From the NCBI RefSeq assembly GCF_013315695.1, contig NZ_CP054353.1: 64,000 nt of DNA; one strand, given 5' to 3'. Shown here in pieces: positions 20,801 to 23,800 of this stretch (its first letter is position 1; every line of letters starts with the position of its first letter). The stretch is from Escherichia coli. Lineage in GTDB: Bacteria; Pseudomonadota; Gammaproteobacteria; Enterobacterales; Enterobacteriaceae. The position numbers are program-made.

Positions 20801-23800
20801 AATATTGCTACGGCCATACAGATAAATATCCAGGTTTTCATGCAATTTGCTCAAAGAATCATTTTATGAATTACAAAGCCTTCACCCAGATCGCTATTGA
20901 CCTGTTGCCCGCGAAATTGTGCAACTGCACGCAGGCGATCATGACGCATATAATCGCGTCGTTCCTGGCTTTTATGTTTTTTTAATGCAGCAAGTTTGAC
21001 TGTGAAATATTCTTCTTTAACGGATTCAAAAACCTGAGGCATAAATGAAAGCCAGGTACTCGGGGTTTCGTAGCCGAGAATTTGTGGAATAGTTCGGCAG
21101 GCAACCATTGAGGCTTGATAGACTGCAAGATGATCCTGATGGCGGTCAGCATCATGCATGGTGTATACACGAATGATTTCTACATCAGACGGAATTTGAT
21201 TTTTAATGATGTCTTCCAGGGCGGAAATCATATCATTGAGCTGTAAATGAGCGCGGGTGTCAGCAAAATTAAGATGAATAGTTTGGTGGCACCCTAATAT
21301 CTTTAGGGCGTTGCGCGATTCTTCATGGCGATCGATTATTCCATCTGTGCCAGAGTTGCCGGTAGTCATCACCACGGCTGCGATATAAATTCCTTTTTGC
21401 GCAAGACGAGCAAGCGATGCGCCACAGCCTAATTCTATATCGTCAGGATGTGCGCCAATAGCAAGGATACCCTTTCTTTTATTTGCCGAAGAAAGGAGGG
21501 CTGAATCTAAAACCTTATCCACTTAATGACACTCCATTTTATTTATTATACTACAAGCACAACGATGCACTCAGAGACGTAATCTCTGGCGCAGCCAGAT
21601 GTTAATTTATAAATGTTAAATGTTGCTAATAACTGAAAAGCAAGGGCTTTCAGACCCGGAGGTTCGACTGGGTAATGTTTTTATGCAATTCATATGTTAA
21701 GTGTTTGTATGTTTGGTATGTATAGTTATTTTGTTTTATACATTGTATTTAGATGTAATTTAGTTTGTCAATTAATTGCATTTAAAAATATGTTCTGTGA
21801 ACAAGTATTGTTTATATACATCATGTGAATGTAATATGCGAGTGATTGAGAATGATACAGTGATATATACAATGCGAATATAATAGTTTTATTATATGTA
21901 TTGATATTGATAGAAATAATGAAGTAATAAATCTCGTAATGTGGTTGTTTATGCATCACTAAAATGAAGTGTAGTAATTTTCCCAATTGTTAGAACGGAG
22001 TAATTGCATATTTAATCTTTCCTTTGCCGTTTTTTTGCTAAGAATAAAATCATCTGTGCGATAACGACTAATTCTTTTAATGAATGTTTTTATTCCTGAA
22101 TACTGCTCCCATAACAAGACAGGGGAGCAGACAATCATGGCAATTTCATCGCGTAACACACTTCTTGCCGCACTGGCATTCATCGCTTTTCAGGCGCAGG
22201 CGGTGAACGTCACCGTGGCGTATCAAACCTCCGCCGAACCGGCGAAAGTGGCTCAGGCCGACAACACCTTTGCTAAAGAAAGCGGAGCAACCGTGGACTG
22301 GCGTAAGTTTGACAGCGGAGCCAGCATCGTGCGGGCGCTGGCTTCAGGCGACGTGCAAATCGGCAACCTCGGTTCCAGCCCGTTAGCGGTTGCAACCAGC
22401 CAACAGGTGCCGATTGAAGTCTTCTTGCTGGCGTCAAAACTGGGTAACTCCGAAGCGCTGGTGGTAAAGAAAACTATCAGTAAACCGGAAGACTTGATTG
22501 GTAAACGCATCGCCGTACCGTTTATCTCCACCACCCACTACAGCCTGCTGGCGGCGCTGAAACACTGGGGTATTAAACCCGGGCAAGTGGAGATTGTGAA
22601 CCTGCAGCCGCCCGCGATTATCGCTGCATGGCAGCGGGGAGACATTGATGGTGCTTATGTCTGGGCACCGGCGGTTAACGCCCTGGAAAAAGACGGCAAG
22701 GTGCTGACCGATTCTGAACAGGTCGGGCAGTGGGGTGCGCCGACGCTGGATGTCTGGGTAGTGCGCAAAGATTTTGCCGAGAAACATCCTGAGGTCGTGA
22801 AAGCGTTCGCTAAAAGCGCCATCGATGCTCAGCAACCGTACATTGCTAACCCAGACGCGTGGCTGAAACAGCCGGAAAACATCAGCAAACTGGCGCGGTT
22901 AAGCGGCGTGCCTGAAGGTGACGTTCCGGGGCTGGTGAAGGGGAATACCTATCTGACGCCGCAGCAGCAAACGGCAGAACTGACCGGATCGGTGAACAAA
23001 GCGATCATCGACACCGCGCAGTTTTTGAAAGATCAGGGCAAAGTCCCTGCCGTGGCGAATGATTACAGCCAGTACGTGACCTCGCGCTTCGTGCAATAAA
23101 AGGAGGCGCAGATGCTGCAAATCTCTCATCTTTACGCCGATTATGGCGGCAAACCGGCACTGGAAGATATCAACCTGACGCTGGAAAGCGGCGAGCTTCT
23201 GGTGGTTCTGGGACCGTCTGGCTGCGGCAAAACCACCTTGCTGAATCTGATTGCCGGTTTTGTGCCTTATCAGCATGGCAGCATTCAACTGGCGGGTAAG
23301 CGTATTGAGGGACCGGGAGCAGAGCGTGGCGTAGTTTTTCAGAATGAAGGGCTGTTGCCGTGGCGTAATGTGGTAGACAACGTGGCGTTCGGCCTGCAAC
23401 TGGCAGGTGTAGAGAAAGTACAGCGCCTGGAAATCGCGCACCAGATGCTGAAAAAAGTGGGGCTGGAAGGCGCAGAAAAACGCTATATCTGGCAGCTTTC
23501 CGGCGGTCAACGTCAGCGGGTAGGGATTGCCCGCGCGCTGGCGGCGAATCCCCAGCTGTTATTACTCGACGAACCGTTTGGCGCTCTGGACGCCTTCACC
23601 CGCGATCAGATGCAAACCCTGCTGCTGAAACTCTGGCAGGAGACGGGCAAGCAGGTGCTGTTGATTACCCACGATATAGAAGAAGCGGTGTTTATGGCGA
23701 CTGAACTGGTTCTGCTTTCACCCGGCCCAGGCCGTGTGCTGGAGCGGCTGCCGCTCCACTTTGCTCGCCGCTTTGTTGCGGGAGAGTCGAGCCGCAGCAT

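What the first reader, a model, noticed from the sequence alone, without database searches (positions are those of the whole stretch)
21523..22136. ~600-bp strongly AT-rich leader between yaiS and tauA
The region is AT-rich with many A/T tracts and no convincing ORF; the only ORF-track calls are short and low-complexity. It is larger than a simple promoter needs and is a candidate for CysB/Cbl control, H-NS binding or an unannotated small RNA.
Basis: inference. Interest (0 to 1): 0.25.

Follow-up and report, generated by a model that had tools for sequence, protein, structure and literature searches.

The report
AT-rich H-NS-bound yaiS–tauA spacer
The AT-rich gap between yaiS and tauA in E. 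coli is an already described, H-NS-bound stretch of acquired DNA that holds the yaiS promoter, followed by a compact, conserved tauA promoter, and I found no sign of a hidden RNA or protein gene.

Summary
Window 21523-22136 is a 614-bp spacer with 30% G+C against 51% for the window, the most AT-rich stretch of that length in the 64 kb, and it has no conserved ORF.

It is not one long tauA leader. It has two parts.

**Left part (about 21523-21985).** This is the edge of an accessory four-gene cassette, yaiO-yaiX-yaiP-yaiS. The cassette is present in 4243 of 5426 complete E. coli genomes and is absent or replaced in ST131 and O157:H7. This part was published as the "promoter island" yaiS/tauA, reported H-NS-bound in all the ChIP studies compared. 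A 150-bp piece of it (template P12, window 21732-21880) was tested in 2024. Its bottom strand carries an active, H-NS-repressed sigma-70 promoter pointing at yaiS (TTGACA 21771-21766, TACAAT 21747-21742). Its top strand, pointing at tauA, is inactive. Both yaiS promoter hexamers are conserved as far as E. fergusonii, while the surrounding sequence diverges quickly.

**Right part (about 22000-22136).** This is the real tauA promoter, with three blocks conserved across nine genera. It fits the published CysB/Cbl control.

The small-RNA idea finds no support: no Rfam match, no unusual folding stability, and hairpins that break in other alleles.

Verdict: already known, low interest. One open lead is a conserved hairpin (22103-22130) that could hide the tauA ribosome-binding site in read-through transcripts.

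The parts
21523..22136 (.). The yaiS(-)/tauA(+) divergent intergenic spacer, 614 bp, 30% G+C.
18230..21985 (.). Accessory segment yaiO-yaiX-yaiP-(ykiC)-yaiS plus the AT-rich DNA. It is inserted between frmR and the tauA promoter. The left junction is exact (18229|18230). The right junction is approximate (21985-21990).
   Evidence: Comparison with ST131 (frmR-REP-tauA) and O157:H7 (a different island). The cassette is 78% identical to Citrobacter sp. FP75 over 21521..18313 only.
21676..21984 (.). Published 'promoter island' 383994_309 yaiS/tauA (U00096.2 coordinates, mapped to the window by me).
   Evidence: PMC3661553 Table 1. Density of promoter-like hexamers is confirmed.
21732..21880 (.). 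Template P12 of Fuqua & Wagner 2024. It is 150 bp in K-12 and 149 bp here.
   Evidence: Sequence match in the paper's supplement; results.
21742..21771 (-). Sigma-70 promoter of yaiS: -35 TTGACA (21771-21766) and -10 TACAAT (21747-21742). The inferred TSS is near 21735.
   Evidence: 11 of 12 consensus match. The same hexamers are assigned by genomic SELEX. It was mapped by mutagenesis as the active, H-NS-repressed promoter of P12-RFP. The -35 is invariant in 9 of 9 and the -10 in 8 of 9 Escherichia alleles, including E. fergusonii.
21523..21735 (-). Inferred yaiS 5' UTR (~213 nt). It has no conserved structure.
   Evidence: Inferred from the promoter position. Fold z = -1.3. Hairpins at 21585-21599 and 21654-21673 are disrupted in other alleles.
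21846..21873 (+). Promoter-like site TTGAGA-16-TACAAT pointing at tauA. It is probably not a working promoter.
   Evidence: assigned by SELEX. P12-GFP scored as a non-promoter. The -10 is TGCAAT in the second E. coli allele, and the site is absent in E. fergusonii.
22017..22046 (+). Conserved block A, core TTTTTTnCTAAnAA at 22031-22044. Inferred to be the upstream activator (Cbl/CysB) site.
   Evidence: Twelve-sequence, nine-genus alignment and gap-free haplotype comparison. Its position relative to either candidate TSS fits the Cbl footprint at -112 to -68, which I recall from the 1997 abstract and did not verify here.
22067..22084 (+). Conserved block B (TAATTCyTTTA), overlapping the -35 region.
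22097..22115 (+). Conserved core promoter with two candidate -10 hexamers: AATACT (22099-22104) and CATAAC (22110-22115). The corresponding TSS would be near 22111 or 22122.
   Evidence: AATACTGC is invariant and ATAAC nearly invariant across genera. The TSS was not verified here.
22103..22130 (+). Inverted repeat CTGCTCCC / GGGAGCAG. As RNA it is an 8-bp hairpin of -13.4 kcal/mol that covers the Shine-Dalgarno sequence (GGGGAG 22122-22127). The 5' arm lies upstream of either candidate TSS.

Best explanation
The spacer is a composite of two unrelated parts.

**Left three quarters (about 21523-21985).** This is the AT-rich end of a horizontally acquired cassette, yaiO-yaiX-yaiP-yaiS. Because of its base composition it carries many sigma-70-like hexamers and is coated by the silencer H-NS; it is the published 'promoter island'. 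Inside it sits one real, conserved promoter (TTGACA-18-TACAAT, minus strand, 21771-21742). That promoter drives yaiS through a long unstructured leader and is damped by H-NS.

**Right quarter (about 22000-22136).** This is the compact, LysR-type-activated tauABCD promoter. It has an upstream activator site (block A), a -35-proximal site (block B), the core promoter, a short leader and the ribosome-binding site. This is where Cbl and CysB switch the operon on under sulfate starvation.

**Shown here:** composition, boundaries, population distribution, conservation pattern, and the absence of signals for an ORF or structured RNA.

**Taken from papers:** H-NS occupancy, RNA-polymerase binding, promoter activity and hns dependence.

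**Inferred:** the TSS positions, the yaiS 5' UTR, and which conserved block binds Cbl or CysB.
For: 1. **Identity and composition.** The spacer matches K-12 384617-385231 and 5419 of 5426 E. coli genomes. G+C is the lowest in the window.
2. **Accessory nature.**
   - 4243 genomes have the full spacer with yaiS.
   - 595 genomes have an empty frmR-REP-tauA site.
   - O157:H7 carries another island at the same spot.
   - All of these keep tauABCD behind a spacer of ~300 bp.
   - Homology with the island-less haplotypes starts near 21988 and becomes near-identical from 22099.
   - In Citrobacter sp. FP75 the cassette homology (78% over 3209 bp) stops exactly at the yaiS start. A different AT-rich spacer precedes it there.
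3. **Published status.** It is listed as a promoter island, H-NS-bound in all ChIP sets and flagged as foreign by three predictors. RpoD and RpoS holoenzyme and H-NS SELEX peaks fall in this spacer, with the same two hexamer pairs my scan found.
4. **Direct assay of 21732-21880 (P12).** The bottom strand is active. Its -35 and -10 were mapped by mutagenesis, with scrambling giving 50- to 63-fold losses. Fluorescence rises by about 0.5-fold in delta-hns. The top strand is inactive.
5. **Conservation.** The yaiS -35 is invariant in 9 of 9 and the -10 in 8 of 9 Escherichia alleles. The segment 21710-21770 is 74-83% identical to E. fergusonii, while flanking AT-rich DNA is 32-47% identical.
6. **tauA promoter.**
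   - 22001-22136 is 97-100% identical between E. coli alleles that differ by 10-40% just upstream.
   - Blocks A, B and C are conserved in Raoultella, Enterobacter, Klebsiella, Kluyvera, Citrobacter, Pseudocitrobacter and Scandinavium.
   - Those genera have tauA spacers of 172-566 bp, most of them 236-316 bp.
7. **No RNA or ORF signal**.
Against: - H-NS occupancy, CysB/Cbl footprints and transcription starts were not measured here. The 1997 footprinting paper could not be read, so assigning blocks A and B to Cbl/CysB is an inference.
- The hns effect in the reporter is modest, about 0.5-fold.
- The number of full promoter-like sites (4) is no more than dinucleotide shuffles of the same region give (3.1 +/- 1.7). 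The 'island' of promoters is therefore a by-product of composition, not an added feature.
- From my recollection of the 1997 abstract, CysB occupies several sites, so one may lie in the AT-rich part. Some tauA-related function of the distal DNA is not excluded.
- The high-affinity H-NS motif TCGATAAATT has only two weak (2-mismatch) matches in the spacer.
Confidence: 0.85

Rival explanations
1. The spacer encodes an unannotated small RNA or a structured cis-regulatory RNA, for example a riboswitch-like leader of yaiS or tauA.
For: - Promoter-like sites exist on both strands, and there are two terminator-like hairpins on the plus strand at 21585-21599 and 21654-21673.
- The inferred yaiS leader is long, about 213 nt.
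- RNA polymerase binds the spacer in vitro.
Against: - No Rfam match at E<=10 in 20500-23200, and none at gathering score in the whole window.
- Folding z-scores are -0.97 to -1.32 on both strands.
- Both hairpins lose pairs, without compensation, in the second E. coli allele and in E. fergusonii.
- 21560-21680 is only 32-57% identical to E. fergusonii.
- Terminator-like sites number 2 against 0.8 +/- 1.0 expected.
Confidence: 0.05
2. The whole ~600 bp is an extended tauA control region. In this reading, distal CysB sites and an H-NS filament are needed for correct sulfate-starvation control of tauABCD.
For: - From my recollection of the 1997 abstract (not verified here), CysB occupied multiple sites on the tau promoter fragment.
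- H-NS bound in a divergent spacer can silence both directions (argued in PMC3946193).
- SELEX assigns a plus-strand promoter to tauABCD.
Against: - About 1180 E. coli genomes lack the AT-rich part, as do all seven other genera sampled. They keep tauABCD with only the proximal conserved blocks.
- The AT-rich part is the fastest-evolving piece of the locus, 63-91% identical between alleles whose flanks are 95-100% identical.
- The plus-strand promoter-like site is inactive in the reporter and not conserved.
Confidence: 0.15
3. The AT-rich DNA is the decayed remnant of a gene or of a mobile element, such as an integration scar or an IS or phage fragment.
For: - It lies at the edge of an accessory segment at an insertion hotspot with three states.
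- An 11-bp perfect direct repeat, AATGTTTTTAT, occurs at 21674 and 22083.
- IS1 copies are inserted here in some strains.
Against: - No ORF has any Pfam or NCBIfam similarity.
- There is no tRNA fragment.
- There is no match in 50,697 phage records. The five plasmid-collection matches are in Mb-sized E. coli replicons (1.2-4.9 Mb), not ordinary plasmids.
- The 11-mer repeat is about what chance gives in DNA of this composition (my estimate is ~0.2 expected), and it is not kept in the MS7163 allele.
Confidence: 0.05

Closest known systems
Promoter island 383994_309 yaiS(-)/tauA(+) of Panyukov & Ozoline 2013 (PMC3661553), which is also template P12 of Fuqua & Wagner 2024 (PMC11661796)
   Same: This is the same DNA. 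The published island maps to window 21676-21984 and P12 to 21732-21880. It is AT-rich, crowded with -10 and -35-like hexamers, bound by H-NS, and next to genes predicted to be foreign.
   Different: - The window strain differs from K-12 at a few positions.
- One is G to A at 21757, which equals one of the engineered P12 mutants.
- Another is one A fewer in the run at 21784-21788.
- The papers do not discuss that the island is missing from a fifth of E. coli genomes, nor that the one active promoter is conserved in E. fergusonii.
appY promoter island (Bykov et al. 2020, PMC7054387)
   Same: Both are AT-rich, H-NS-binding, promoter-dense regions upstream of a horizontally acquired gene with low output.
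   Different: The appY island is larger and lies in a prophage. Here a single dominant, near-consensus promoter is already present and active in a reporter.
tauABCD promoter under CysB/Cbl control (van der Ploeg et al. 1997, J Bacteriol 179:7671)
   Same: The right end of the spacer is that promoter. The conserved blocks have the usual LysR-type layout, with an upstream site about 80-90 bp and a second site about 35-50 bp before the start.
   Different: The paper could not be read here, so footprints and the start site are not mapped onto the window with certainty. K-12-type strains carry a diverged, more AT-rich allele of the -120 to -15 region (49% identical, gap-free, to the ST131/O157 allele). 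That allele is shared with E. fergusonii.
ssuE(-)/elfA(+) spacer
   Same: The other Cbl-dependent operon also faces a published promoter island next to an acquired fimbrial operon (Table 1 of PMC3661553).
   Different: It is a different sequence. The tauA block A motif is not found there at 3 or fewer mismatches, and a by-eye alignment gives only ~60% over 30 nt.
Fold-back inhibition of IS10 transposase mRNA (Davis, Simons & Kleckner 1985; cited from my own knowledge)
   Same: In both cases a sequence just upstream of the native start is complementary to the ribosome-binding site. Only transcripts that read in from outside can form the inhibitory hairpin.
   Different: This is untested for tauA. 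The start site is inferred, and the pairing is lost in E. fergusonii.

Membership tests
Promoter island / H-NS-silenced AT-rich acquired DNA | A stretch of at least 300 bp with an abnormally high density of sigma-70 promoter-like sites. | tested here: met
   42 TANNNT hexamers against a median of 12 per 614 bp (top 0.5% of windows). Four full -35/-10 sites against 0.92 per kb in the window. It is listed as island 383994_309. The density equals what its own composition predicts.
Promoter island / H-NS-silenced AT-rich acquired DNA | Association with horizontally acquired genes. | tested here: met
   The cassette is absent or replaced in about 1180 of 5426 genomes. Its closest relative outside Escherichia is in Citrobacter sp. 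FP75 in another genomic context.
Promoter island / H-NS-silenced AT-rich acquired DNA | H-NS occupancy in vivo. | not testable with these tools
   From the literature only: bound in all ChIP studies compared, H-NS SELEX site, and reporter output raised in delta-hns.
Promoter island / H-NS-silenced AT-rich acquired DNA | Little productive transcription despite RNA polymerase binding. | tested here: inconclusive
   From the literature: the top strand of P12 is inactive, but the bottom strand is an active promoter. There are no chromosomal transcript data here.
LysR-type (CysB/Cbl) activated sulfate-starvation promoter | Lies directly upstream of tauABCD, with conserved sites at activator positions. 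| tested here: met
   Blocks at 22017-22046 and 22067-22084 and the core at 22097-22115 are conserved across nine genera.
LysR-type (CysB/Cbl) activated sulfate-starvation promoter | Binding of Cbl and CysB, and Cbl-dependent transcription. | not testable with these tools
   Established by van der Ploeg 1997 (reference seen). The full text is not held.
Structured non-coding RNA (any Rfam family) | Match to a covariance model. | tested here: not met
   Zero matches at E<=10 and zero at gathering score.
Structured non-coding RNA (any Rfam family) | Structure more stable than shuffles and kept by conservation or covariation. | tested here: not met
   Folding z-scores are -0.97 to -1.32. Hairpins are broken in other alleles.
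Small protein gene | An open frame kept across relatives, or a family match. | tested here: not met
   Frames are broken in K-12 or MS7163. No Pfam or NCBIfam match.
Fold-back inhibition of read-through transcripts (IS10 type) | A 5' arm complementary to the ribosome-binding site. | tested here: met
   CTGCTCCC 22103-22110 pairs with GGGAGCAG 22123-22130 at -13.4 kcal/mol. A hairpin using the same arms is predicted in all 12 sequences, but it is only a broken 4-bp stem in E. fergusonii.
Fold-back inhibition of read-through transcripts (IS10 type) | The 5' arm lies outside the native transcript. | not testable with these tools
   True for both candidate -10 hexamers (TSS near 22111 or 22122), but the TSS was not verified.
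Fold-back inhibition of read-through transcripts (IS10 type) | Pairing maintained by compensatory change. | tested here: inconclusive
   The 3' arm is invariant. The 5' arm shows only C/T changes opposite G in 9 of 10 taxa, the fifth pair is mismatched outside E. coli, and the inner helix is lost in E. fergusonii.

The most novel reading that the evidence does not exclude
The conserved C-rich octamer next to the tauA -10 region (CTGCTCCC, 22103-22110) may be an anti-Shine-Dalgarno arm that is left out of the Cbl-dependent mRNA. It would be included in any transcript reading in from upstream, whether from the AT-rich promoter island here or from mmuM or other neighbours in other genera.

Read-through RNA would then fold into a hairpin of -13 to -19 kcal/mol that hides the ribosome-binding site. 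TauA would be translated only from its own promoter. This would be an IS10-like fold-back insulator in a housekeeping sulfur operon.
Probability: 0.2. Interest if true: 0.4.

Novelty: already known. Interest (0 to 1): 0.12.

Why it matters
This changes little that is fundamental. The spacer is a textbook case of how E. coli handles acquired AT-rich DNA, combining H-NS coating, many pseudo-promoters and one real promoter.

The useful corrections are these:
- The 600 bp is not a tauA leader.
- The tauA control region is the last ~120 bp.
- The remainder belongs to a cassette missing from about a fifth of strains.

Because strains differ in what abuts the tauA promoter, they form a natural set for asking whether neighbouring H-NS-bound DNA alters induction of a sulfur-starvation operon. 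The hairpin lead, if real, would show a simple way for a promoter to be insulated from upstream transcriptional noise.

Tried and rejected
1. **Rfam.** A permissive scan and a gathering-score scan both found nothing.
2. **ARAGORN.** I looked for a tRNA fragment at the GGTTCGA-like motif near 21660 and found none.
3. **H-NS high-affinity motif TCGATAAATT.** It has only two 2-mismatch matches in the spacer. The window-wide excess is not centred here, so the test is uninformative.
4. **Repeats.**
   - Only short two-copy matches were found.
   - The 11-mer AATGTTTTTAT pair (21674 and 22083) is near chance expectation and is not conserved.
   - The inverted repeat 22042-22053 / 22084-22095 is specific to the K-12-type allele.
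5. **Homologues of the AT-rich part.** There are none in phages, and the plasmid-collection matches are in Mb-sized E. coli replicons.
6. **Shared Cbl motif with the ssuE promoter.** No match at 3 or fewer mismatches; only ~60% by eye.
7. **Primary tauA promoter paper and TSS or ChIP tables.**
   - The two van der Ploeg 1997 identifiers (PubMed id 9401024 and PMC179728) and PMC4288677 are not held.
   - The Kahramanoglou supplements are not held.
   - Text searches for the TSS found nothing useful.
8. **N-terminally extended tauA ORF starting at 22080.** Rejected. It runs through the conserved promoter blocks, and the annotated ATG at 22137 has GGGGAG 9 nt upstream.
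Full report
**Observation**

The window is E. coli. It corresponds to MG1655 384617-385231, which is 615 bp because of one extra A, and nothing is annotated inside it in RefSeq.

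G+C is 0.301 against 0.513 for the window. That is effectively the lowest value of any 614-bp stretch in the 64 kb, and the core 21681-21999 is 0.248. TpA steps and A/T tracts are two to two-and-a-half times the window average.

ORFs inside the spacer are at most 74 aa and match no Pfam or NCBIfam model. They are interrupted in K-12 or in a second E. coli allele. The exception is one 25-codon frame whose product is heavily substituted.

**The spacer is two things, not one**

A megablast of 21400-22250 against 5426 complete E. coli genomes finds the full stretch in 4243 of them. In the rest, only the last 40-340 bases match.

- In ST131, frmR is followed by a REP element and then tauA, with a 305-bp spacer.
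- In O157:H7, a different island (a two-component system, a uhpC-like gene and an ABC transporter) abuts tauA, with a 302-bp spacer.
- The empty-site sequence is complete in 595 genomes.

The left junction of the yaiO-yaiX-yaiP-yaiS segment is at 18229|18230. On the right, recognisable homology to the island-less haplotypes begins near 21988 and becomes near-identical from 22099. About 460 bp of the 614 therefore belong to an accessory segment.

Outside Escherichia, the closest relative of YaiS found among the GTDB species representatives is in Citrobacter sp. FP75. There the four genes are 78% identical at the DNA level over window 21521..18313, and the homology stops exactly at the yaiS start codon. 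An unrelated but also AT-rich (31% G+C) 412-bp spacer precedes yaiS there. E. fergusonii has the E. coli arrangement, with a 676-bp, 29% G+C spacer that aligns with the window.

**What is known about the AT-rich part**

The spacer is one of the 78 "promoter islands" of Panyukov & Ozoline 2013 (383994_309 in U00096.2, which I map to window 21676-21984). It is marked as bound by H-NS in all the ChIP studies they compared and as adjoining genes called foreign by three predictors.

Genomic SELEX places RpoD holoenzyme, RpoS holoenzyme and H-NS in this spacer. It names TTGACA-18-TACAAT for yaiS and TTGAGA-16-TACAAT for tauA. These are the same two sites my own scan returned, at 21771..21742 on the minus strand and 21846..21873 on the plus strand.

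Template P12 of Fuqua & Wagner 2024 is this DNA, window 21732-21880; I found it by sequence in their supplement. They report the following:

- The bottom strand, which points at yaiS, is one of only ten active parents among 50.
- Its -35 and -10 were mapped by mutational hotspots and scrambling, with 50- to 63-fold losses.
- TACAAT to TATAAT raises output.
- Fluorescence rises by about 0.5-fold in delta-hns, and two H-NS motifs flank the promoter.
- The top strand, pointing at tauA, scored as a non-promoter.

**What I add on that part**

The promoter-like crowding is real relative to the window. There are 42 TANNNT hexamers against a median of 12, and four full sites against 0.9 per kb. It is no more than dinucleotide shuffles of the region itself produce, 3.1 +/- 1.7, so it follows from composition.

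Across nine Escherichia alleles, the yaiS -35 is invariant and the -10 is invariant in eight; strain 361 has ATGGTA. The spacer length between the two hexamers is constant. The 60 bp around the promoter are 74-83% identical to E. fergusonii, against 32-47% for most of the remaining AT-rich DNA.

By contrast, the plus-strand site loses the key A of its -10 (TGCAAT) in the second E. coli allele and is absent from E. fergusonii.

Between the window strain and MS7163, the flanking genes are 95-100% identical but 21600-22000 falls to 63-91%. The AT-rich DNA is therefore the fastest-changing part of the locus, with one island of constraint, the yaiS promoter. From the promoter position I infer a yaiS start near 21735 and a leader of about 213 nt.

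**No RNA element**

- Rfam finds nothing at E<=10 in 20500-23200 and nothing at gathering score in the whole window.
- There is no tRNA or tmRNA.
- Four folds covering both strands give z-scores of -0.97 to -1.32.
- The two terminator-like hairpins (21585-21599 and 21654-21673) lose pairs without compensation in the second allele and are unrecognisable in E. fergusonii.

**The tauA promoter**

From 22001 to the ATG, the two island-bearing E. coli alleles are 97-100% identical.

I aligned the 200 bp before the ATG from the window, MS7163, E. fergusonii, ST131, O157:H7, Raoultella, Enterobacter cloacae, Klebsiella pneumoniae, Kluyvera, Citrobacter, Pseudocitrobacter and Scandinavium. The alignment shows three blocks:

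- **Block A:** 22017-22046, with invariant core TTTTTTnCTAAnAA.
- **Block B:** 22067-22084, TAATTCyTTTA.
- **Block C:** 22097-22115, with AATACTGC invariant and ATAAC nearly so.

The sequence between B and C is free to vary, as a -35/-10 spacer would be. Either AATACT (22099-22104) or CATAAC (22110-22115) could be the -10, putting the start near 22111 or 22122. This layout is that of a LysR-type activated promoter.

It agrees with what I recall of the 1997 abstract: Cbl protects one site from -112 to -68 and CysB protects several. I could not open that paper, so the assignment is inference.

The other genera have tauA spacers of 172-566 bp, most of them 236-316 bp, with varied neighbours. The two-component system found next to tauA in O157:H7 is also the neighbour in Raoultella, Enterobacter and Citrobacter. 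In Klebsiella, Kluyvera and Pseudocitrobacter the neighbour is mmuPM.

The K-12-type allele of the -120 to -15 region aligns without gaps to the ST131/O157 allele at 49% identity. Shuffles give 29%, and 0 of 10,000 reach the observed value. In its details this allele groups with E. fergusonii. The cassette and a diverged, AT-enriched promoter allele therefore travel together.

**A lead inside the coordinates**

CTGCTCCC (22103-22110) is the exact complement of GGGAGCAG (22123-22130), which contains the Shine-Dalgarno sequence. The hairpin is -13.4 kcal/mol. RNA starting at 22111 is unstructured, at 0 to -0.2 kcal/mol.

The 5' arm lies upstream of either candidate start. Only transcripts entering from upstream could form the hairpin.

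A hairpin using the same arms is predicted in all 12 sequences, at -8.7 to -19.1 kcal/mol. The 3' arm is invariant. The 5' arm varies only by C/T opposite G in nine of ten taxa. The fifth pair is mismatched everywhere but E. coli, and the inner helix is lost in E. fergusonii.

Both arms are also constrained for other reasons, one by the promoter and the other by the ribosome-binding site. The case is open, and I give it about 0.2.

**Verdict**

H-NS binding and CysB/Cbl control are established, the latter confined to the last ~120 bp. The small-RNA idea has no support.

The excess length is explained by an acquired cassette whose AT-rich end carries the yaiS promoter. All main elements have been described before (1997, 2013, 2014, 2024), so this is already known and of low interest.

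Noticed in passing
window 21757 and 21784-21788: The window strain has A at 21757, where K-12 and seven other Escherichia alleles have G. On the bottom strand this is TAAATC to TAAATT, the exact point mutant that Fuqua & Wagner built in P12. That mutant lowered yaiS-directed output in an H-NS-dependent way. The A-run at 21784-21788 is one base shorter than in K-12 and overlaps their other H-NS hotspot.
   Followed up: partly
window 20851-21522 (minus strand); L001 4060-4617: The yaiS ORF is an intact 223 codons in the window, as in Citrobacter FP75 (223) and E. fergusonii (222). K-12 yaiS stops at 185 codons. PGAP annotates the yaiS locus as a partial pseudogene in NZ_OZ547117 (100% identical to the window over 21400-22250) and in several other strains.
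   Followed up: partly
window 18229|18230 and ~21985; L003, L004: The frmR-tauA junction is a three-state insertion hotspot in E. coli: empty with a REP element, the yaiOXPS cassette, or a two-component/uhpC/ABC island. The last arrangement is the one found next to tauA in Raoultella, Enterobacter and Citrobacter, so it may be the older state.
   Followed up: partly
hits H15 (NZ_CP043946.1) and H24 (L006, NZ_AP027716.1): IS1 copies sit in or beside the AT-rich spacer in some strains. In TBU0218_10-1CC, IS1 lies where yaiS and most of the spacer would be, and tauA carries an internal stop.
   Followed up: no
window 22103-22130: An eight-base-pair inverted repeat pairs the sequence just after the tauA -10 region with the Shine-Dalgarno sequence. 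It is conserved in most genera sampled. It is treated above as the novel case.
   Followed up: partly
window 21600-22000: There is strong strand asymmetry: GC skew is +0.4 to +0.53, with T exceeding A on the plus strand. The first ~100 nt of the inferred yaiS leader RNA are therefore C-rich and G-poor, which resembles a Rho-utilisation site.
   Followed up: no
K-12 ssuE/elfA spacer (L100 1014-1368): The other Cbl-dependent operon, ssuEADCB, also faces a published promoter island (996773_328) next to an acquired fimbrial operon. Both sulfonate operons of K-12 therefore abut H-NS-type AT-rich DNA.
   Followed up: partly
window 60741-61354, 26681-27294, 36401-37014: These are the next most AT-rich 614-bp stretches of the window, at G+C 0.32, 0.35 and 0.35. 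The second lies just past hemB. None was examined.
   Followed up: no
window 20866-20985 (plus strand): The small gene ykiC (39 codons) is present between yaiP and yaiS and overlaps the 3' end of the full-length yaiS ORF. The window product differs from K-12 YkiC at one residue (P for S at position 15).
   Followed up: no
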